64,000 nt of DNA from the human T2T-CHM13v2.0 reference genome, Homo sapiens. Under the pieces are notes generated by a model. It saw nothing but the letters and a program-made list of their open reading frames with translations, was not told the origin of the DNA and did not search any database. The stretch is from the NCBI RefSeq assembly GCF_009914755.1, contig NC_060934.1. One strand, given 5' to 3'. Positions 13,630 to 54,100 of the stretch are shown here, one piece after another. The position numbers were made by a program, and so were the translations under genes. Numbering within the stretch: position 1 is the first letter of the stretch; each line of letters opens with the position of its first letter.

Positions 13630-16299
13630 AAAACCTATAACTGTTTGCCAACAAATTAGATGACTTAGATAAAGGAGACAAATTCCTAGAAAGGCACAAA
13701 CTACCAAAACCAACTCAAAAAGAAATTTAAAATTTGTATTACTGAACATTTTAAGAATTAATACCAAATGTTCACAAACTCTTCCAAGAAACAGAAGAAA
13801 GGGAACAGTTCTCAATTCTTCCTATGGAGCCAGTAGTCCTCCGATATCAAAAACCAAGACATCACAAGAAAACTACAGACCAATATCTCTTATAAATACA
13901 GATAAAAAATCCTCAAGAAAAACTAGCAAAATAGAATCCAAATCTACTGATGAATGGATAAACAAAATGTGGCATATTCATACTATGGAATATTACTCAG
14001 CCTTAAAAAGGAATGAAGTAGCCATACATAGATGAACCTTGAAAACATTATGCTAAGTGAAAGAAGTCAATCACAAAAATACAATATATTTATTGTATGA
14101 AAACAGTTTCATGGTTGCCTAGGCTGCAGGGCTGGGGACGAGGGGACACGGGGAGGGTTGTTTCTGGAATGAGACATGACTACCAACAGGCATGGGGTTT
14201 CTTTCCGGGGTGATGACAATGTTCTAAAATTAGATTTTGGTGATAGTTGCATAACTCTGTGACTACATTAAAAACTGCTGAATTATATAAATTCAAATTC
14301 AATTCAATTCAATTAATTTCTATAATACATGAAATATACCTCAATACAGCTGTTTAAAAGAGTCCAGTGATAGGATGTTTAGAAGAGCCGGCAAAAGACA
14401 ACTTAGGCAGGATAAGCATTAGCTACATAGCTGGCTGGGGGTGGGCGATAGGGAGAGATATTTTAGGGGTTCATTTCATTGAGGTGTTCCCCATTTTGGT
14501 TCCAGGATTCCTGGGGACCAAGGAGGGTCCCCTACAGGTACAAGGACCACAGAGTAACAAGATGAGAAAACACACCTCCAAGCCTCTTCTTCCTCTTCCC
14601 TTCGGGAGTTCAGACCTCTGAAGCTCTCTAGGAGACTTGCTGCCCTAAGGGCCGAGGTCAGGGACTTAGGGCTTCCTCAGGATTGGTTCCTCTCTGGAGC
14701 CATGAGAGCCAACCCCCTAACCCTGGAGGCCAGCAGCGTTGACCCCGGCTATGTGCTGTCGAGCCCCCACCCTCCAGCTGAAAGGCCACAGGACTCCTCT
14801 CCAAGCAGGTAGGAGGGGGTGCCGGGACTTCTCGTGTCCTGTTGCTAGGCACACCAGCAGTTCTGGGTTTCCTCAGAGAATCATCAAAGTTCAAGCCACC
14901 AGTGACCTAGAGATCATCGAGTTACGCTTGTTTCCCTCTTTCCAGATAAAGAAACTAAAGAAACTGAGGTTCTGAGTGGCAGGGAGCTGGGACGACTGCT
15001 GGCATTTCTGACAGTCTTGAGGCCTGCGTGCCTATCCCCATTGCAGGTGGGAGGGCAGAGGCTCAGAGGTGTGAGGGGGAGGCCTGGCTAGGAAATGAAA
15101 CCAAATTTCTCTGCTGGATGCTGGTTCCCTTTTTGAAAAACCCCCAGGGCTGCTGTGCAGGACACCGAGTGGAGAAGAAGTCACAAAGAGCGGCCCTTCT
15201 CAGAAATCGAGTGGAGCCAGAAGCCTCAAGTTTCAGTCTCCTGAGCAAGGCCCGCAGGACGGCAAGGCTCGACCACATCCCAGCATGTGGTTCCAGGCCT
15301 CAGATCTGTCCACGTCAGCCCACCACTGCCTTCAAAGTCAAGTCAGACATGAGGGCTGCCACCTCGCCTGGCCTCTGCCAGCCTTCCCAGCAGCAAGCAT
15401 AAGACAGAGTCTGCCCTGGCCTTCAGGGAGCTTCTGGCTCACTTAGTGAGGGAACAGATTGTGCAAAGTAATGACACATGTATATTTACACATTATGGTA
15501 AGTGTTTTAAAGGAAAAATACATAATGGCAAGTGAGCAAACAACAGGGGTCAGAAAAGGCCTCTCAGGAAATAGTGACACTTAGGCCCAGACAAACAGGG
15601 AGCAAGGTGACTTCAGGCAGAGAGAAATGAGGGAAGCAAAAGCAGGCCACGTGTGAGAGGAGGATGGGGATGTGGGGAGCTGGAGACCACATGGCCGGCA
15701 GCGTATGGCACTGAGAATCAACTGTCACTGCCACTGGAACCACTGAGCATGCAGTGAGCAAGTAGGGAGCAGTGAGACCCCGCAGGTGACCTGCACAGGC
15801 CACACTGGCTACTGGAGAAGGGACTGGAGTTGAGGAGGGTCCATGTGGGAGGCCTTGTTGGGAGAGGCCACTGCAGCAGATGGGGCTGCAGGTGCTGGCA
15901 TAGCATAGAGACAGCAGAAAGATTCAAGTGCACTTTGGAAATAGAACTGGCAGGATGTGGGGATGGCAAATTGGAGGAAAAGGATGAAATTGAGAATTCA
16001 GTTTTAGCCCGATTAGCTTTGGCCAATTTCTAGCCCAGGAGACATCCAATGGAGGTGTCCAGGGGTCAGAGGCCTGAGCCAGGAAAGTGACTAAAGATTC
16101 TGATGAGTTTGCCAGCCAGAGGGCCGAGCAAGCAAGCAAGAAGCATCAGAATGTGCAGGCCCCTAGGGACAGGAGCAGAGACGGAATGGCAGAGCAGGAG
16201 GCAGCCACTGTGCTGGCCTGAGGACTGTGGCTCCCCGAATGCTGCAGCAGAAGAGCAGAACCGGTCCTATCACCCAGTCAGTAACAGCCATGCCTCCTG

Positions 16300-16520
16300 A
16301 CCTCTCCCTCCAAGACAGAGCAGGGCACTCTGTCCCCTCATCTTGCACCAGACCAGCAACAGCATTCCTGCCCAGGTCCACTGGCCTCTGTACTCTGGCT
16401 GCTGGGCACCCCAGTGAGCCCAAGCCTGGCAGAGCCTATACTCTGTCCACCAGCAAAGGGGCACAGGGTCTGCAGGAACCCATGCCCAGAGCTCATCTAT
16501 TACAATGCAGTGATAAACAC
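16300..16520 (-). pseudogene. Gene B relic with an RGS22-like N-terminal motif
   Basis: DELWAWVPADPVPLCWWTEYRLCQ resembles RGS22 W-x3-ERLP-x-F-x4-Y-x-EYRL (from memory); possible donor GAG|gtcagg near 16300. Confidence 0.4.
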
Positions 16521-16717
16521 AGTGGACTGCCACTGGGATCTGCTGGGTGTTGGGTAACCCAACAATAGGCTGGGGCCAGCCAGCAGGTGAGCTCGATGGT
16601 TTCCTGTCTCTGCCCACACTCTGCTCTTGCTACTGTTCACAAGTACAGATTCTGTGCTAGTGTGGTGCCAGGCCACATAGGTGACAAAGTGATCCCCAGC
16701 GGCAGACCCAGGCTCAC

Positions 16718-16877
16718 CGCACCAAAGGGAATGAAATGAACTGGGCCCGAGGGCTGGGGCTCAGAGATGGATTCGGGCACAGGCCACCTGCCCAGGCTCG
16801 ACTGCCCTCAGGCCCATTTGATGGCATCTTGAGAGGAAGTGGTGTGGTGCGGAAACCAGAGAGGTGGTCTGGGGAGC
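16718..16877 (-). CDS. Gene B exon 4; the spliced frame ends at TGA 16808-16810, giving a 93-aa ORF
   Basis: Acceptor ttccccctccccctcccag|G and possible donor GCG|gtgagc; reads WLPRPPLWFPHHTTSSQDAIKWA*. Confidence 0.5.
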
Positions 16878-17942
16878 CTGGGAGGGGGAGGGGGGAACAC
16901 AGTGCCAGCAAGGCTGGGAAGCTGAGCCTTTTCTGCAGGCAGTCTGGGGCCAAGGTGGGGTTTGAGGAGGATCATAGTGTCTCCAGAGCTGTGGGTGGAT
17001 GCTGGCTTGGGCAGTGGACTAGAAGGGGCAAGGGTGAACTCAGGATGGCCAGCCAGGAAGCAGTGCCATCAAGGCGATAAGTCGAGGGAATGCACAGGTG
17101 TTGCGGTGGCCTCCAGGGCAGGAGCACAGGAGCCATCAGCCATTGGTTGTGAGAAATGAAGAAGAGGGCAGGGTCGAGAGCCAGGAAAGCAGAAGAGGCA
17201 GTGGGAGTGCGGGACTGCACTGGAGTCTAATGAGGGGCTCTGGATCTGCAGGCCGCAGACAGGCACTGCAGAGCTTGGAGAGGGAATCTCGGAGGCATTT
17301 GTTTAGAGGCAATCACAGTCATCAGGGCCTTGAGGGAGACAGCTCAGAAGGTGAACAAACTTATAGCCAAAAGCCAGCAGGGCAGGGCTGCCTTCAGCCC
17401 TGGTTCTGCTGTTCTGCTGCAGCATTCAGGGAGCCACAGTCCTCAGGCAGCCCTCAGCAGCCCAGGAGGGGCCTAAGGGGAGCAGGCCCGCAGGTGCTCA
17501 GAGCGTCAGAACTGGTCATCTGGTCCAGTGCAGATGATCTCCTTCAAGGCAGAGCCTGACAGGGGGGCCAGGATGAGTGGGGAGGAGGACAAAGGGGATT
17601 CAGGGCTGGGCACACTGTTCCCTGGTGCTGGGAAAGGAGGGGAGGAACAATGGGCAGGGCTTATGGAGCATAGACAGGGACAAGAAATTGGTCTTGTTGG
17701 TTTTGTTTTTGAATTTTTGGTTGAGCAACTCAGGCAGGTTTATGGGCTGACAGGAGTTGACGGGAGGGAGGGTGAGGATGTCGGGAAGAGCATGGGACCT
17801 GGTCATGGGCAAAACCCCAGAAGGCAAGGAAGAGCTGCTGCTGCTGAGAGCAGCAGGAAGGGTGAGGGGCGAAGAGCTCCAAAGGCAGCTGGAGATGAAG
17901 CGGTGGCAGAGAATGAGCACGTGTCAGGATCTAAGGGCCTAC

Positions 17943-18046
17943 CAGTCTGCTCCTGCCCCTCGCTGCCCTGGAACAAAGCTGACTCCATGCTGTGCTCCAG
18001 TACCACCTTCTTCCTCCAAATTTCCACCTTGGGTAACAATGCAAAG
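17943..18046 (-). CDS. Gene B exon 3 (LCIVTQGGNLEEEGGTGAQHGVSFVPGQRGAGAD)
   Basis: Acceptor tttcattttcttcag|C and donor CTG|gtaggc; 104 nt, open in frame. Confidence 0.55.
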
Positions 18047-19447
18047 CTGAAGAAAATGAAATTTGCCACCAAACAGACCCATCACAGAGCTCTAAATACA
18101 GATGCACCTGGAAACATGCCCCAGAAACAATACCCTCAGAGTTCAGACAAGTACATGAGCCCTCTGCTTTTAGAGGAGGCTTATCCTCTACAAATCAGAT
18201 CCTGCTCACTGACCTTTCAGCTTTTTGGGAGCACCTGGAACCCAGGATTTCTCTATTTGTGAAAACCTGTCTTGCATATGATATTAAGTGGGATTAATGT
18301 CACAGCATATCACACCCTCCCCTCCCCGAAAAAGGCACGCAACAATCCCTTCCCGGACCCACTGTGCCCACCTACAGCTTTGCAGCCAGCAGGAGAGCAA
18401 GGGGCTCCTGGATAAAGCCCAGGATTTGGGTTTTAAAGGCGTGATGATGACACCTACTAATGTGGCTCTGGCTCTTGATATATTTTTGCTGCTCTCTTCA
18501 TGAGATTATAGAATATTTCAGCTTTTCTGCTTTATCAAGTAGATTTTTACACAGGGACAAACATGCTAAAATGTTCTGTTGTAAGAGTTTGATTCATCCA
18601 AGAATGAAATCAATAAGAACAACTGTTGTCTTAGCTGTTGCTTTAATTGAAATGATATCAATGATTAATGGACTCTCTTTCAAGCTTTTCTTAAAAAAAT
18701 GCACATACACATCTCTAGGCTAGAGAGTCAGATAGCTCCTTAGGTGGGTGGCAAGAGCTAAACACACACATGGATACACACACAGACATACTGTGTTACT
18801 GCTATTACAACCAAACAGTTTAATGTCCAAAGCAGCATTTCTCAAAGTGTGTCCACACATATGTGTGCCATGAAATGCTCTATGAAAAGAAGGTTCCCTA
18901 GGGAAAGGTGTGGAGACCATACCTCCAATCCACCTGACTTAGCAGGCACAACTGTGCCAGTGTGGCAAAGGCTCTGTTTGCTGTGAAAAATCTTCCAAAC
19001 TTTCATAATTCCTTATGTCTAAGATTATTTGACCAAATAACCCTTCCCGTGTTTATTGCAGAACTAATTGTGAACAATGGTTCAGACTGTCCGCCACCCA
19101 GCCAGACTGGCCACATGGGTTCAAATTTGTTAAATGAGCCTGCAGCATTTAAACCCTTGGAGACTTTGTACACTAAGACATCAAACATCTGTCTTCCTTG
19201 AACCTCAGACTCTCCAACAATTGCATGGGTTCTCTCCTCCCTGCCAGACAGTGGCTGGTCATCCACTCTGGCACCACAGCGCTCCCCACCCACTTGGCCA
19301 GCTTGGCTAACTTCCATGGGCTGCAGAACCTTGTAGGCACTTCAGACTCAGTGCCTACTCCCAGGCTGCTGTGGCCAGCCATCTCTCGGGTAGGTGGGAG
19401 GGTAGGGCCCAGCTGGGGAACACTCCCAGACCAGGCTTTTTCCTTAC

Positions 19448-19503
19448 CTGGACTGGTGAAGCCAGCAGCTGGCCTTGGGGGTCCACAGCCCCAGAGGACA
19501 GAC
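19448..19503 (-). CDS. Gene B exon 2 (GLSSGAVDPQGQLLASPVQ)
   Basis: Acceptor ctcctcttgcttag|G and donor CAG|gtaagg; 56 nt, open in frame with exon 1. Confidence 0.6.
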
Positions 19504-20236
19504 CTAAGCAAGAGGAGGTGCCCCTGGCTCTCTTCTGAGGCTGCTTAATGAGTCTATGTCCTCTCTAACCAAGACTTTGCAAATCCACCCTTGCTTTTGG
19601 GACACTCTTTACCATGTTTACTGAAGAGGGGTCAGGAGAGACTAAAGCTGCTCGTCCAGGCCCTGGCGGGGGTGAAATCCTGGGCTCTGACCTGCCCTCG
19701 GGGAGCATGCAGCAAGACCTTGCCCTCTAAACCCTACTGCAGCCCTAGCTATTGTCATAGTGAAGACACCACACACAGGGCTCTCGGCCCCTGCTTCCAA
19801 GAATGAAGCCTCATGTGCAAAATTCTTTTTCATTCTTTCTACAATCAGAAGCTGAGGAAACTGTTGCTCTGGGACAATGAGAACCTTGCAACTACAGCAC
19901 TCACATTTTTCACTTGGTTTTGGTTGCAAAGAGGCTCAACCACAGATCATACCTCATAGCCAGATTAACTGGGCTCCATTTTCCCTTGACCTCTCTACGT
20001 CCTGTGTAAATGTAGGGTCCTGTTTAGGTTTTTAAATAGTTAAGTATTATATATGTTATAAGCTACTTCAAACCCTTTGTGAAACCAGCCTGTACATTGA
20101 TGGCACCATTCTCACCTGGACAAGGTCGAAGGCTGCCTGACCTTTTCTGTATCTGGATGCAGAATACACTTTTCGGAGGAAGGAAGACCTAGTGCTCATT
20201 CTGGCAGAGCCTGCCTTACCCTATATGGTTTACAGG

Positions 20237-20411
20237 CAAGGCTTCCCAGACTCACCTGGCCATAGGAGTCACTTGGGGAACTCCTTAAACACACAGTTTC
20301 CCAAGGCCTTCCCCAGAGCCTATCCAGCAGGCCAGGGTGGGGCCTGGGAATCTGCATGCTTAATAAGCGCGGCAGGTGAGTGTTAGGGTCAGGTGAGTTT
20401 AGGGAGCGCTG
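20237..20411. mobile_element. MER5-family DNA transposon
   Basis: ggtggggcctgggaatctgcatgcttaataagc core. Confidence 0.65.
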
Positions 20412-20479
20412 CAGTAAAGGGATGCACCACTATGTTCCCAACGATCAACAGGGATCATTTCAGTCAGTCAAGGGTTAAG

Positions 20480-21700
20480 TCGGCCGGGCCCCAGCCCCCG
20501 GGAGGCCGGACCTCCGGCGGCCGCCAACGTCCTAAGCGTGTTTCTGGGCTTTGGGCCCTCTCCAAGACTGCTGCATTCCTCAAGCAGCTCTGCTCGCAGG
20601 TTCCGCCGCGAGTTTTGGAAAACTCTGAGTCAGGGCCCCACCGTCCAAGTTTGTGACAGAGGCGGGCGAGAATGAATGGTCCCTCTCCCGGCAGTTAAGC
20701 CGCAGGGGCGGCGCAGGGCGCGCGCCGGGCTCGCGGTGCAGAGACCTGCGAGCGGGTCTGGGCGCCGGGGGTTCCTCCGTCCCGGCCGTGGACTTGGCGG
20801 ACCTGCAGCCGGCGCCGCGGCCAGCCCCGGGCCCTGGAGGGCGGACCCTCCCCTCGGCTCTACCCACTCCCGCCCAGGGGCCGGACCCCACCCCCACTCC
20901 CACATGGGGACCGAGGAGCCCCAGGATGCGCCCCCGCGCCCCGAGTGAAGGGGAGCCTCCCCTTCCAAAGTTAGGAGACTCAGAGGAGCAGCAGCCGCAC
21001 CTGAGCCCTTTCCAAAGCTGAGGCAGGTGCGGGCGGCCCTGGACACCCCGTGGCGAGTCCCCGAGGCGGGGCTGGCAGCCTCTGGCGGCGGCCGCAGGGA
21101 GCGGGGCGCACGTGCGCGCCGGAGTTACCTTTGGGCGCTCGCAGGTGTCCCCTCCAGTCCTTGCAGCAGCACAGCCCCATGGCAGCCGCCCGCGGCCCCG
21201 CCGCTCGGCTCCTCTCCCCGCCTGCCGCCTGCGCCCCGGGGCGGCGCGGCCGAGGTCCGGCCCACGGGCAGTGCCCAGCTGGGCGCAGGGTGCGCGGGGC
21301 CGCCGGCCCGCGGCTCCCGGGCCCTCACACTCCACCGCGGCCCCGCGCAGCGGGCATGCCGGCCTCCGGGCAGACCCTGCTAATCAATAGGAGAACGCGC
21401 AGATCGCGACCGCCGCGCCACTGCCCGCTTTTATCTCCGCGCGCCGGGGCGGCCCCGCGCTGCTCCCTGCCCTCGCCGGCGCCCTCCCCACGGCCCGTTA
21501 CTCTCCCGGGGTGCCGGGCCGCGCGCTCTCCCAGGAGCCGCCAGGGGGCGCCACGGAGCCGGGGCTGCCTCCGCCTCCCTGGGAGCCAAGCAGGGGTGGG
21601 GGGCCACACCGGCCTGGCCTCCCCGCGCAGAATGGGAAGAAGGGGCGCCCTCGCTGTGCAAGGGAGACGCCCCCAACCCCACCAGCATCCTCTGGGCAGT
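20480..21700. promoter_or_regulatory. CpG island, likely promoter of gene B
   Basis: About 1.2 kb of very high GC and CpG. GC box near 21446-21456, minus-strand TATA-like GATAAAA at 21429-21435, and palindrome GCGCACGTGCGC (E-box/NRF1-like) at 21106-21117. Confidence 0.9.
21129..21180 (-). CDS. Gene B coding exon 1 (MGLCCCKDWRGHLRAPK-G)
   Basis: ATG at 21180 in GCTGCCATGG context; donor AAG|GTAACT at 21129/21128; 52 nt, phase 1. Confidence 0.6.
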
Positions 21701-21829
21701 CATCTCAAGGGTGACTTTGTCGGGGGTGTTCAGGACCACCGAGCTCTCAGTTTCCCAGCTCACCTGTACTGTGCAGTAGTAGGAAGAGGGAGTGTTTGCC
21801 CAGGCTACCCTCAAACCTGGCGGGCTACT

Positions 21830-28582: not shown

Positions 28583-29534
28583 TGGGAAGTGATGCAAAAT
28601 CCTTATGGCTAGCACTGCCTGGCCCTGACAATGTGCCAGGCTAAGAGCTTGACATGTGCACGTTCACTTAGAATTCAGAGCAATCCTATGCATTCGATGT
28701 CATCATTATTTCCACTTTCAAGAGGAGGGCACCGAAGTACAGAGAAGTGAAGTCATTTGCACAAGGTCACAACAGCTAATTAGTGGTTAAGCTCAGATTG
28801 GAACCCAGCCCATCTTGCTTTCTAGCCTGTGATCTTAACAACTCTATGATAAATGTTTTTGGGGGAAAAGGAATGGGACTCGATGGTGAATAAGATGGCC
28901 TGTGGGACAAAGGCACACATAACTGTAGTTGAGACTTCCAGTTAAAAAAGACAAGCCCTGTGGAGTGCTGGATTGAGACCGCGGGTTATTGCTCCTAGCT
29001 TTTCAGAATAATGTCTGTCTCCTGCCAGCCCTGGCCTCTGGTAGAGGGAGCTTGTTGAAGAAGGGCGTGATGTAGACACTTTGTAGACAGCTTATCACAA
29101 AACATACCTTTGATTGGCACTAGTAACTCACGGGCATTATTTTGTTTAATTTTCACAATAGCCTGTAAGGGTGATATGTCATCAGATCCAATCTACAGGT
29201 GAGGATATGGACACCCGCCCAGGTTATGCGAGCTCTCAAGATCACACAGCTGGTGGGTAGAGGGTAGAGCCTGTCCTCCAATCTGGGCAGTCTGAACACT
29301 GCTGGTCACCTTCTTAACAACCACTCACTGCCTTCTGCCTCTTGGTGGTGAGGGTCTCATCTGGGCCTGCGTCCCTGCCCCCACCCCCTTCTCCCATCAT
29401 ATTTCTGATCTATATTAGGAGTTTGGCTAAAATTCAGTGTGCACACACACTGTATGTCCACATAACACAGACCCACAGACATTGGAATTGGAAGGTTCTC
29501 TTTTAACACAACCTCCTCATTTTTCACAAGCAAT

Positions 29535-29910
29535 TTTTTTTCTTTTTTTATTATACTTTAAGTTCTAGGGTACATGTGCACAACATGCAGGTTTGTTACG
29601 TATGTATACATGTGTCATGTTGGTGTGCTGCACCCATTAACTCTTCATTTACATTAGGTATATCTCCTAATGCTATCCCTCCCCCAACCCCCCACCCCAT
29701 GACAGGCCCCAGTGTGTGATGTTCCCCTTCCTGTGTCCAAGTGTTCTCTTTGTTCAATTCCCACCTATGAGTGAGAACATGCAGTGTTTGGTTTTTTTGT
29801 CCTTGTGATAGTTTGCTGAGAATGATGGTTTCCAGCTTCATCCATGTCCCTACAAAGGACATGAACTCATCCTTTTTTATGGCTGCATAGCATTCCATGG
29901 TGTATATGTT
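29535..29910 (-). mobile_element. L1PA 3' end
   Basis: ttattatactttaagttctagggtacatgtgcacaac. Confidence 0.92.
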
Positions 29911-30631
29911 CACGAGCAATCTCTTGAGGGCCTACTTTGCGCCAGGCACTGTAAGGTGAGTTAGTGACAAGTTGGGCCTGTCCTTATTGAACTCCAGTTT
30001 TTGCTCTGAAACAAATAGATATACAGAAGTGATAAGCAGAAATGAGGCTTCTTACACCCTCTCAAAATGTTTTATGCACTTTTAGCACAGTGCATGGAAG
30101 CCAACTGCTTTGCCTTCTGATATCTAGTTCAATCTCTGGTCAGACATATTAACAAGAACCCCTGTCCCCGTACTGACCCTCATCAACAGCATTGCTGTTG
30201 CTATTCATTTTGCAGACTCATTGTTCTGTTTTTTTTTTTTTTTTTTTTAACTAAGTATATGATTCTGGGGAAGGTGGGTATTACTCTTTTTCTGTTTGAA
30301 GCAAGCCCCATACATCTTTTTCTAGAGAAAAAGCTCTAGATCCCATAAGGACTGGTATTCTTTTTTCTTTCTGTTGATGAGACTTGTCTCATTTCTCTTT
30401 TTCCTTTGGCTTCCAGGAAGCTCAAGAAAAATTTGAAGCCTGGCTTTGGCAAATATGTAGGTCCTAACAGTCTTCATATTTGTGTTGTGGTTCATGATTT
30501 TGAGTTGCTACTTTTATTTGCATTTTCTCAGGCTCTCAATTATTTTGAACTATTGTGGTATCACTATTTTATTCTAAGTCTTCTCAATAGAGGCCATTTC
30601 AAATCCTGTGTGGAATAACAAAGGAGTAAAC

Positions 30632-52189: not shown

Positions 52190-52581
52190 TCCCTGGCTTT
52201 ATTTCCAGGTATTGTGTTTAGATTTTCACCCTGAGATGTTCCCATTGACTAGTTTCTTTCCTTGCATTTATCGTGAATTTAAAAATCCTCGTTTCGCATT
52301 ACCCAAAAGCTCATTGTCCAGATAATTGATGGGACTTTCTAATTTCTTCCCCATGTGAGTATGCTGTCGATTTGGCCCACATTTCCGAGTCATGCCTGGA
52401 GACTGTGCTGTGGCTCCTGCGGGAGGAGTGTCACGAAGGTCTGCCCTTCCCAGGCCAGGGGCATGGCAACACCCCCACCAGGGCTGCAGAGCTGGAAGGT
52501 GCTCAGGCCTACCTGGGCTGATCTCAAAGAGGTGCTTCCCTGGGTCCTCGGGGCCAGGAGGAAGTTCAGTCACCTGTGTCC
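52190..52581 (-). pseudogene. Gene A Ig-like exon relic
   Basis: Acceptor tttatttctctacaag|G; ILTWGRN...[11 protein letters not shown]...TQYLEIK. Confidence 0.4.
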
Positions 52582-54100
52582 CTTGTAGAGAAATAAATCC
52601 CTAAAAAGGAGGCAAACACAAACACAGGGAGCATGAGATGATGGGGAGGGGACTGCTGTCGTCAGGGTCCCTGGAGAGGAGAGGTTAGGACCTGGGGCCC
52701 TCCAGGCCATGGCTGGGAAGGCTGGGCCTCAGAGAGGGGCACACACCTCCTCTCCTAGGGAGAGATGAGGCCTACTCAGAGTCCCAGGTGGATTAAGGTG
52801 GACACTGTAGTCTGCATACATGATTGGAGGAGCTCTGCCCACAGGCAGGGGGAACTCTGGAGCAGGGAGGGAGGCTCCCACCACTGGGAGCGCCTGATCC
52901 AGTGTGCCACCTAAGCCTTTCTGGGCCAGCAGGGTTTCAGGCTGGACAGGGTCAGGGAGAAGCCTGGCACTCTGGCTCCTGAGGCAACATGGGGGAAAGG
53001 ATCAACAGATCTGTGTGCGTCCAGTCCTGCCACGTCTTGGCTGGGTGAGATTTCCTTTCTTTACCAATGAGATAGGAGTCAGTTACCATGTACATGGTAC
53101 CCCACTACAGAGAGTGCCAGGTGCCTGGGGTGCATGTGTATGCATGACAGAGGGCGGCTCCACCTGCTCTCTAGTGCTGAGGTCTGGCAGCTGGGCTGAA
53201 AGGTGCAGAAAAAAAGCATGAGGTATAGGGACGGGGAGGCTGGCTTTGAGTCCCAGCCTTGCACTTCCAGGCTGTGTGACCTCAGGTAACCCGCTCAATG
53301 TCTCTGAACCTCAGTTTCCACATCTGCACAATGGGACATGTCTCAGGAGGGTCGAGATGCCAGATTCCCATGTGGTAAGTCCTACTCAAGAGAATGAGGT
53401 GTTATAACCGCTGTGATTGACCCTTCCCCAACCCCCAGGCTAGGCAGGGCCTCCTTTATCCTCCTTCTGTATGTCAGTGACTATGAGCTGTGCTGAGGCC
53501 TTTATTTCATTCATGCTTGGTTTTGCTCAACTCAGACTTGGTATGGCTTCACTACATATTTTTGGTCCTCTCAATGGGAAACGCATTTTGAACTCCATCC
53601 CTGCAACCAACTACCTGGGTTCAAATCCTGGCTCAGCTACAGGAACATTGTTCAACCTGTCTGTGCCCCAGTTTCCTTGTCTGTGAAACAGGAATAATAA
53701 AGTACTTTGTAGGGATATTTGGAGCATCAAATGAATTAGTACTTGGAAGTTCTTAGTACTTAGTACTGGTACACAGTGAGAACTGTGTAAGTGTTTGCTA
53801 AATAAATGCCTGCTATTATTGTATATAAGGGCTCCACACCTAGTGGGGCACCGCATCCCTGTGTCTGCATTTACCCAGGTGAGGGGCAAAGTCACCTGCT
53901 GTATCCAGGTCGCCTCCTGCCTCTACCCCCATGTGTACTCACAGAGTACACACCCCCAATATTTTCCAGGCAAATCCTGGCTTTCACAGGGTGATGGGAG
54001 CCTCCCATGTGCTGCTGGAATCCTGCGCTCCAAGGACACATGGAAGTGACTCTTCTCATTTAAGCAACGTTAATGTGGAAAGGCAGAACATCGTCCTTAC

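What the first reader, a model, noticed from the sequence alone, without database searches (positions are those of the whole stretch)
16808..21180. Surviving spliced 93-aa ORF with an N-myristoyl/palmitoyl signature
Exons 21129-21180, 19448-19503, 17943-18046 and 16877 onward all have intact GT-AG sites. They splice in frame to MGLCCCKDWRGHLRAPKGLSSGAVDPQGQLLASPVQLCIVTQGGNLEEEGGTGAQHGVSFVPGQRGAGADWLPRPPLWFPHHTTSSQDAIKWA*. Met-Gly followed by a Cys cluster is the established dual-acylation membrane anchor. The 5' end of the dead gene could persist as a lncRNA or a membrane-targeted microprotein. If the 16718 donor is used, the stop lies ~90 nt upstream of a junction and would be predicted to trigger NMD.
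Basis: partly seen in the sequence, partly recalled or inferred. Interest (0 to 1): 0.7.

Follow-up and report, generated by a model that had tools for sequence, protein, structure and literature searches.

The report
ARHGAP22 alternative first exon, not microprotein
The Met-Gly/cysteine-cluster start codon is real, but it opens an annotated alternative first exon of the living gene ARHGAP22 and reads on into its RhoGAP exons, while the three further "exons" that make the 93-residue peptide are no better than chance.

Summary
The four minus-strand segments have AG/GT flanks and join to a 93-aa frame, with TGA at 16810-16808, 90 nt before the 16718 donor.

The interpretation mostly fails. Exon 21129-21253 is an annotated alternative first exon of ARHGAP22 (hub table), not the remnant of a dead gene. 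It lies in a CpG island. Its only ATG (21180) has G at -3 and +4, and its coding part ends in the same phase as canonical exon 52513-52600.

Joined to the next canonical exon, 44 kb downstream at window -23163, it gives an unbroken frame of 624 or 608 aa (68.1 or 66.4 kDa). That frame runs through the end of the PH domain, a complete RhoGAP domain and the coiled coil. This fits the published PH-truncated isoform p68RacGAP.

The three extra "exons" appear in none of 39 RefSeq transcripts. Two are open in all three frames. Their codon usage matches intron, and their density equals background. Chains of 93 aa or more arise in 22-30% of control placements.

Dual acylation of the real isoform is plausible but untested. 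I found no paper describing it.

The parts
21129..21253 (-). Annotated alternative first exon of ARHGAP22: 5' UTR 21181-21253 plus the coding part.
   Evidence: The hub table lists exons 21129-21225 and 21129-21253 of other ARHGAP22 transcripts. The exon holds one ATG only. Its donor after 21129 scores at percentile 99.1.
21129..21180 (-). Coding start of the PH-truncated ARHGAP22 isoform: 17 codons plus 1 nt. It encodes Met, Gly2, Leu3, Cys4-6 and Lys7.
   Evidence: There is G at -3 and +4 around the ATG. The segment ends in phase 1, like canonical exon 52513-52600. Joined to the exon starting at window -23163, it reads open for 624 or 608 aa.
20400..21799 (.). CpG-island promoter around the alternative first exon.
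   Evidence: GC is 0.61-0.81 and CpG observed/expected is 0.40-1.01 in 200-nt bins. The flanks have GC 0.41-0.56 and o/e 0.13-0.27.
19448..19503 (-).
   Evidence: The splice sites are strong, at percentiles 98.9 and 99.9. There are no stops in any of the 3 frames. It is not in any RefSeq transcript (hub table).
17943..18046 (-). Candidate pseudo-exon 3 (104 nt).
   Evidence: The acceptor is at percentile 99.6 and the donor at 95.6. There are no stops in any of the 3 frames. There is no Pfam match at E up to 1. It is not annotated.
16808..16877 (-). Candidate terminal segment of the 93-aa frame, with TGA at 16810-16808.
   Evidence: The acceptor is at percentile 99.8. The stop is placed. There is no Pfam match. 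It overlaps the RefSeq 'enhancer' features 16254-16843 and 16844-17430 (hub table).
52513..52600 (-). Canonical ARHGAP22 coding exon, used here as the phase reference.
   Evidence: Its 88 nt are open only in frame 0 and end with 1 extra nt. That is the same phase as the coding part of the alternative first exon.

Best explanation
The ATG at 21180 is the start codon of an alternative-promoter isoform of the live gene ARHGAP22. Transcription starts in a CpG island near 21225-21253. The 52-nt coding part of the first exon (17 codons plus one base) is spliced across a 44-kb intron to the next canonical exon, which starts at window -23163 (chr10:49328837 in this assembly). The frame then runs through the last helix of the PH domain, the whole RhoGAP domain and the coiled coil, giving 624 or 608 residues. 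This isoform therefore lacks most of the PH domain and carries a 17-residue private N-terminus. That N-terminus has Gly2, three cysteines at 4-6 and Lys7, which makes it a plausible but untested N-myristoyl/S-palmitoyl anchor. Segments 19448-19503, 17943-18046 and 16877 onward are intronic pseudo-exons. Their open frame is a by-product of G+C-rich, stop-poor sequence and of free choice among GT-AG sites. Shown: exon annotation, phase match, continuous frame, and domain content. Inferred: use of the same downstream acceptor by the annotated transcripts, identity with p68RacGAP, and acylation.
For: The hub table lists exons 21129-21225 and 21129-21253 as exons of other ARHGAP22 transcripts, and no annotated exon lies between 21129 and the window start. 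One search shows a single ATG in the exon, a phase-1 end that matches canonical exon 52513-52600, and a CpG island. Searches show the next exon accepts phase 1 (acceptor score 10.9), and the chain of 7 downstream exons is open for 607 codons up to TAA. One search gives per-exon Pfam hits. The PH hit covers profile positions 80-104 of 105 (E 5.1e-5). The RhoGAP hits cover positions 1-44, 51-90 and 117-147 of 148 (E 3.5e-10, 1.1e-11, 2.9e-9). One search gives 68.1 kDa for 624 aa and 66.4 kDa for 608 aa. Passages of PMC4059726 and PMC4049857 describe a PH-truncated short isoform, p68RacGAP, expressed in endothelial cells. Several results argue against the extra exons. One of 13 allowed paths reaches 93 aa, while others reach 55-90 aa using other frames of the same segments. 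Controls reach 93 aa or more in 21.8%, 29.9% and 26% of trials. There are 120 equally good candidate exons on the minus strand of 144 kb, or 4.33 per 5.2 kb against 4 here. Codon-usage score is -0.28 bits per codon, against a median of -0.27 for 500 random stop-free intronic stretches. Six of 7 held-out true coding chunks score 0.28-0.87.
Against: I saw no transcript data. That the annotated transcripts join 21129 to the exon at -23163 is inferred from the absence of other annotated exons and from the phase match, because the hub table gives coding parts for one transcript only. I chose the search windows for the downstream exons by eye, from translations that I recognised. The PH hit (24.2 bits) is just under Pfam's cut-off of 25.1. 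One of 7 true coding chunks scored -0.21 on the codon test, so that test is weak for 76 codons. The p68RacGAP paper (Aitsebaomo 2004) is not held, so I did not see its N-terminus.
Confidence: 0.85

Rival explanations
1. A transcript from the same promoter uses the three unannotated exons and is translated into a 93-residue, lipid-anchored microprotein, or persists as a lncRNA.
For: The frame exists. The splice sites score at percentiles 95.6-99.9. It is the longest of the 13 paths allowed at that stringency. The ATG context is strong.
Against: None of 39 RefSeq transcripts uses these exons (hub table). Chains at least this long arise in 22-30% of controls. Two of the segments are open in all three frames, and codon usage is intron-like. 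The translated segments have no Pfam family. If the 16718 donor is used, the stop lies 90 nt before a junction, which predicts decay.
Confidence: 0.05
2. The segments are occasionally included as poison exons in ARHGAP22 transcripts from this promoter. Inclusion gives unproductive, NMD-targeted mRNAs and no stable protein.
For: The sites are as strong as those of annotated exons. Lengths of 56 and 104 nt (160 nt together) shift the frame relative to the exon at -23163, and the frame then meets the TGA at 16810-16808.
Against: The exons are not annotated (hub table). Such candidate exons are as frequent everywhere in this 144 kb, with 120 on the minus strand. Most intronic pseudo-exons are not used, which is general knowledge and was not tested here.
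Confidence: 0.1
3. The alternative first exon acts only as a 5' UTR, and translation of these transcripts starts at a downstream in-frame Met. The Met-Gly/Cys peptide would then never be made.
For: No direct evidence. I have seen no protein-level data for this N-terminus.
Against: It is the only ATG in the exon and the first in the transcript. It has G at -3 and +4 and is in frame with the whole downstream coding sequence.
Confidence: 0.04

Closest known systems
p68RacGAP, the PH-truncated short isoform of ARHGAP22/Arhgap22 (Aitsebaomo et al. 2004; seen only as cited in passages of PMC4059726 and PMC4049857)
   Same: The PH domain is lost or truncated, while the RhoGAP domain and C-terminal coiled coil are kept. 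The predicted mass of the 624-aa form is 68.1 kDa.
   Different: Identity is inferred, not shown. The original paper is not held, so I did not see its N-terminal sequence and species. The passages I read do not mention lipidation.
HK1S, the sperm-specific hexokinase 1 isoform (PMC4736023, abstract and passages read)
   Same: An alternative promoter or first exon replaces the usual N-terminal targeting module with a short private N-terminus. That N-terminus has Gly2 and a nearby Cys, lacks Ser/Thr at position 6, and was shown to be myristoylated and palmitoylated.
   Different: HK1S has Gln3 and one Cys at position 5, and its acylation was shown by experiment. Here position 3 is Leu, there are three Cys at 4-6, and nothing has been tested.
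Src-family SH4 motif Met-Gly-Cys (PMC2200018, abstract passage read)
   Same: Both have an N-terminal Gly2 with cysteines in the first ten residues. From recall only, Fyn and Fgr also have Cys at 6 followed by Lys.
   Different: Cys3, which that paper calls necessary and sufficient in the Src-family context, is absent here, where position 3 is Leu.
Intronic pseudo-exons
   Same: Segments 19448-19503, 17943-18046 and 16877 onward have good AG/GT sites and no annotation, and they occur at background density.
   Different: Nothing distinguishes them from the other 116 such candidates on the minus strand of this 144 kb, except that they follow a real coding first exon.

Membership tests
ARHGAP22 protein isoform (RhoGAP family) | The start codon is in frame with a RhoGAP domain. 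| tested here: met
   The frame is open for 17 + 607 codons. Pfam RhoGAP hits cover positions 1-44, 51-90 and 117-147 of 148 in three of the downstream exons. A fourth exon, expected to cover about positions 91-116, was not scanned.
ARHGAP22 protein isoform (RhoGAP family) | Intact N-terminal PH domain. | tested here: not met
   Only PH profile positions 80-104 of 105 remain after the private 17 residues. The exon at 52513-52600 and all exons upstream of it are skipped.
NMT substrates (N-myristoylation) | Gly at position 2 after the initiator Met. | tested here: met
   Translation of 21129-21180.
NMT substrates (N-myristoylation) | Classical Ser/Thr at position 6 (Met-Gly-x-x-x-Ser/Thr, as quoted in PMC4736023). 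| tested here: not met
   Position 6 is Cys. PMC4736023 states that Ser/Thr6 is neither sufficient nor critical, so this does not exclude modification.
NMT substrates (N-myristoylation) | Myristate incorporation that is lost in a G2A mutant. | not testable with these tools
   This needs metabolic labelling. ARHGAP22 was absent from the readable supplements of 3 myristoylation papers. The files of a fourth could not be read.
Src-type dual-acylation motif Met-Gly-Cys | Cys at position 3. | tested here: not met
   Position 3 is Leu and the cysteines are at 4-6. The motif definition comes from the abstract of PMC2200018.
Real coding exons (for 19448-19503, 17943-18046, 16811-16877) | Present in annotated transcripts. 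| tested here: not met
   The hub table of 39 RefSeq transcripts lists no exon there.
Real coding exons (for 19448-19503, 17943-18046, 16811-16877) | Frame-specific openness and coding-like codon usage. | tested here: not met
   There are 0 stops in all 3 frames of two segments. The codon score is -0.28 bits per codon, against an intronic median of -0.27, and 52.6% of 500 random stretches score at least as high.
Real coding exons (for 19448-19503, 17943-18046, 16811-16877) | Cross-species conservation of the frame. | not testable with these tools
   No vertebrate genomes or alignments are on hand.
NMD target (50-55 nt rule, recalled) | Stop more than about 55 nt upstream of the last exon junction. 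| tested here: met
   The stop is 90 nt from the junction after 16718. This applies only if that donor is used.

The most novel reading that the evidence does not exclude
The alternative promoter of ARHGAP22 swaps one membrane-targeting device for another. Most of the PH domain is replaced by a 17-residue N-terminus that is N-myristoylated on Gly2 and S-palmitoylated on one or more of Cys4-6. This would give a constitutively or reversibly membrane-tethered Rac GAP, possibly the endothelial p68RacGAP. My searches found no paper stating this (listings only).
Probability: 0.4. Interest if true: 0.45.

Novelty: already known. Interest (0 to 1): 0.2.

Why it matters
The finding as filed, a surviving microprotein from a dead gene, would be misleading if carried forward. 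The gene is alive, and the start codon belongs to an annotated ARHGAP22 isoform.

One modest, testable idea remains. The PH-truncated isoform may reach membranes through a lipid anchor instead of its PH domain. That would bear on where this Rac GAP acts in endothelial cells.

The case also shows how easily GT-AG chains produce open frames. With loose site thresholds, one script chained a 4337-residue "ORF" through 76 kb that is mostly intron.

Tried and rejected
- **Dead-gene reading:** rejected, because the hub table and searches show a live gene with an intact downstream frame.
- **Pfam scan of two pseudo-exon translations:** 0 families at E up to 1. These are short peptides, so this is weak evidence.
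- **Pfam scan of the 29-aa translation of exon 52513-52600:** 0 families at E up to 10, so I could not confirm by Pfam that this exon is PH sequence.
- **First threshold run:** One search replaces it.
- **Unconstrained 'longest ORF' dynamic programme:** it did not recover the gene structure and gave a 4337-aa artefact. It was replaced by a search restricted to seven windows that I chose by eye.
- **Literature:** ARHGAP22 with 'myristoyl' found 4 papers and with 'palmitoyl' 13 papers. I saw listings only. No title concerns lipidation of ARHGAP22, but I did not open these papers.
- **p68RacGAP paper:** not held under PubMed id or DOI.
- **Supplements:** those of PMC4550359, PMC10696250 and PMC12858966 hold no ARHGAP22. 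Those of PMC6317481 could not be read. bioRxiv supplements are closed, so the human myristoylome tables of 10.1101/2021.06.22.449375 were not seen.
Full report
**The observation**

On the minus strand, the ATG at 21180 opens a 52-nt segment that ends at 21129 and is followed by GT. Segments 19448-19503 (56 nt) and 17943-18046 (104 nt) are each flanked by AG and GT, and an AG precedes 16877. Joined, they give a 93-residue frame that ends at TGA 16810-16808. The stop lies 90 nt before the GT that follows 16718.

**What the first exon is**

The hub table lists 21129-21225 and 21129-21253 as exons of other ARHGAP22 transcripts. The exon lies in a CpG island: 20400-21799 has GC 0.61-0.81 and CpG observed/expected up to 1.01, while the flanks are at 0.13-0.27. 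It holds a single ATG, with G at -3 and +4.

Its coding part is 17 codons plus one base. Canonical coding exon 52513-52600 is open only in frame 0 and also ends with one extra base. Both exons therefore hand the same phase to whatever exon follows.

**Where the frame goes**

The window's genome is held, so I fetched the 80 kb downstream of the window.

- An acceptor at chr10:49328837 (window -23163, score 10.9) accepts phase 1 and reads into recognisable ARHGAP22 sequence.
- I searched seven windows, chosen by eye around such translations, for the best-scoring open chain.
- That gave seven exons of 177, 208, 133, 74, 122, 880 and 229 nt. They are open for 607 codons and end at TAA.
- With the 17 private residues, the isoform is 624 aa (68.1 kDa). 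With a weaker alternative donor 48 nt earlier in the first of these exons (score 3.7), it is 608 aa (66.4 kDa).
- The 16-residue difference matches the 714- and 698-residue forms mentioned in PMC3429473 (passages read).

Pfam scans of four single exons gave these hits:

| Exon | Pfam family | Profile positions | E-value |
|---|---|---|---|
| First downstream exon | PH | 80-104 of 105 | 5.1e-5 (24.2 bits, just under the cut-off of 25.1) |
| Second | RhoGAP | 1-44 of 148 | 3.5e-10 |
| Third | RhoGAP | 51-90 of 148 | 1.1e-11 |
| Fifth | RhoGAP | 117-147 of 148 | 2.9e-9 |

The ATG at 21180 therefore starts a PH-truncated, RhoGAP-complete ARHGAP22 isoform. The gene is not dead.

Passages of PMC4059726 and PMC4049857 describe such a short, PH-truncated isoform. 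They call it p68RacGAP and say it is expressed in endothelial cells. The 68.1-kDa prediction fits that name. The original paper is not held, so the identity is inferred.

**Are the three further 'exons' more than chance?**

I used a rough splice-site weight matrix, with consensus frequencies from recall.

| Site | Percentile |
|---|---|
| Annotated acceptor at 52600 | 99.3 |
| Annotated donor at 52513 | 99.1 |
| Annotated donor at 21129 | 99.1 |

The 5.2 kb after 21129 holds 5 acceptors, 16 donors, 4 candidate internal exons and 13 allowed paths. One path reaches 93 aa, and the others give 29-90 aa. One of these gives 90 aa by reading the same two segments in other frames.

Controls at the same stringency reach 93 aa or more at these rates. 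The placements overlap, so they are not independent.

| Control | Trials | Share reaching 93 aa or more |
|---|---|---|
| Virtual first exons, minus strand of the window | 147 | 21.8% |
| Virtual first exons, plus strand | 147 | 29.9% |
| Dinucleotide shuffles of this stretch | 300 | 26% |

Further results point the same way.

- Equally good candidate exons number 120 on the minus strand of 144 kb. That is 4.33 per 5.2 kb against 4 here, and 43.2% of 347 sliding bins hold 4 or more.
- Two of the three segments have no stop in any frame, so their openness carries no information.
- A codon-usage score trained on the true downstream coding sequence gives -0.28 bits per codon for the 76 extra codons.
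- The median for 500 random stop-free intronic stretches is -0.27, and 52.6% of them score at least as high.
- Held-out true coding chunks score 0.28-0.87 in 6 of 7 cases and -0.21 in one.
- The 17 codons of the real first exon score +0.28.

The translated segments match no Pfam family. None of the 39 RefSeq transcripts uses them (hub table), and the last one overlaps RefSeq 'enhancer' features. With loose thresholds, a script chained a 4337-residue frame through 76 kb of mostly intron, which shows how little a GT-AG chain proves on its own.

I had no RNA-seq, CAGE, Ribo-seq or vertebrate alignments. Low-level inclusion of these segments as frame-breaking poison exons therefore cannot be excluded.

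**The acylation motif**

The private N-terminus has Gly2, Leu3, Cys4-6 and Lys7.

- Gly2 is the absolute requirement for N-myristoyltransferase.
- The classical Ser/Thr at position 6 is missing. PMC4736023 (passages) states that it is neither sufficient nor critical.
- That paper shows a close parallel. The sperm hexokinase isoform HK1S gains, through an alternative promoter, a private N-terminus with Gly2 and Cys5 and no Ser/Thr6, and it is myristoylated and palmitoylated.
- The Src-family motif Met-Gly-Cys (PMC2200018, abstract) is not met, since position 3 is Leu.
- From recall only, Fyn and Fgr carry Cys6 followed by Lys, as here.

Dual acylation of the real isoform is thus plausible. I put it near 40%. 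It is untested.

My searches for ARHGAP22 with 'myristoyl' (4 papers) and with 'palmitoyl' (13 papers) gave no title on the subject. I saw listings only. ARHGAP22 is absent from the readable supplements of three myristoylation papers. A fourth paper's files could not be read, and bioRxiv supplements are closed.

**Verdict**

The sequence facts are confirmed. The microprotein and dead-gene reading is not supported. The start codon belongs to a known, annotated alternative first exon of ARHGAP22.

What remains of interest is a modest hypothesis. The PH-truncated isoform may trade its PH domain for a lipid anchor. Interest is 0.2.

Noticed in passing
window 29538-30005 (-): The annotated exon of other ARHGAP22 transcripts behaves as an alternative terminal exon. 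It has a strong acceptor at 30005 (percentile 99.2), no donor, and AATAAA 15 nt before its A-rich end. Read from canonical exon 52513-52600, the frame stops after 24 codons, which would give a protein that ends inside the PH domain. Most of the exon is repeat-masked (29525-29913).
   Followed up: partly
L007 (chr10:49328661-49328837, window -23339 to -23163): The first exon downstream of the window has two in-frame donors 48 nt apart, scoring 3.7 and 7.3. These account for a 16-residue difference between ARHGAP22 isoforms, matching the 698- and 714-residue forms mentioned in PMC3429473.
   Followed up: partly
window 21428-21435 (-): A TATA-like octamer lies 182 nt upstream of the annotated exon start at 21253. 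That is too far to serve that start site, and it sits just beside the RefSeq 'silencer' feature 21472-21551.
   Followed up: no
window 21325-21357 (-): An upstream ATG is in frame with the ATG at 21180, but it is closed by a stop codon at about 21327-21325. It lies outside the annotated exon, so it cannot extend the isoform's N-terminus.
   Followed up: partly
L002-L009 (chr10:49272001-49352000, minus strand): With loose splice-site thresholds (acceptor at least 5, donor at least 3.5 on the rough matrix), a longest-frame search chained 52 'exons' into a 4337-residue open frame through mostly intronic DNA. This is a caution for every spliced-ORF finding made by eye.
   Followed up: yes
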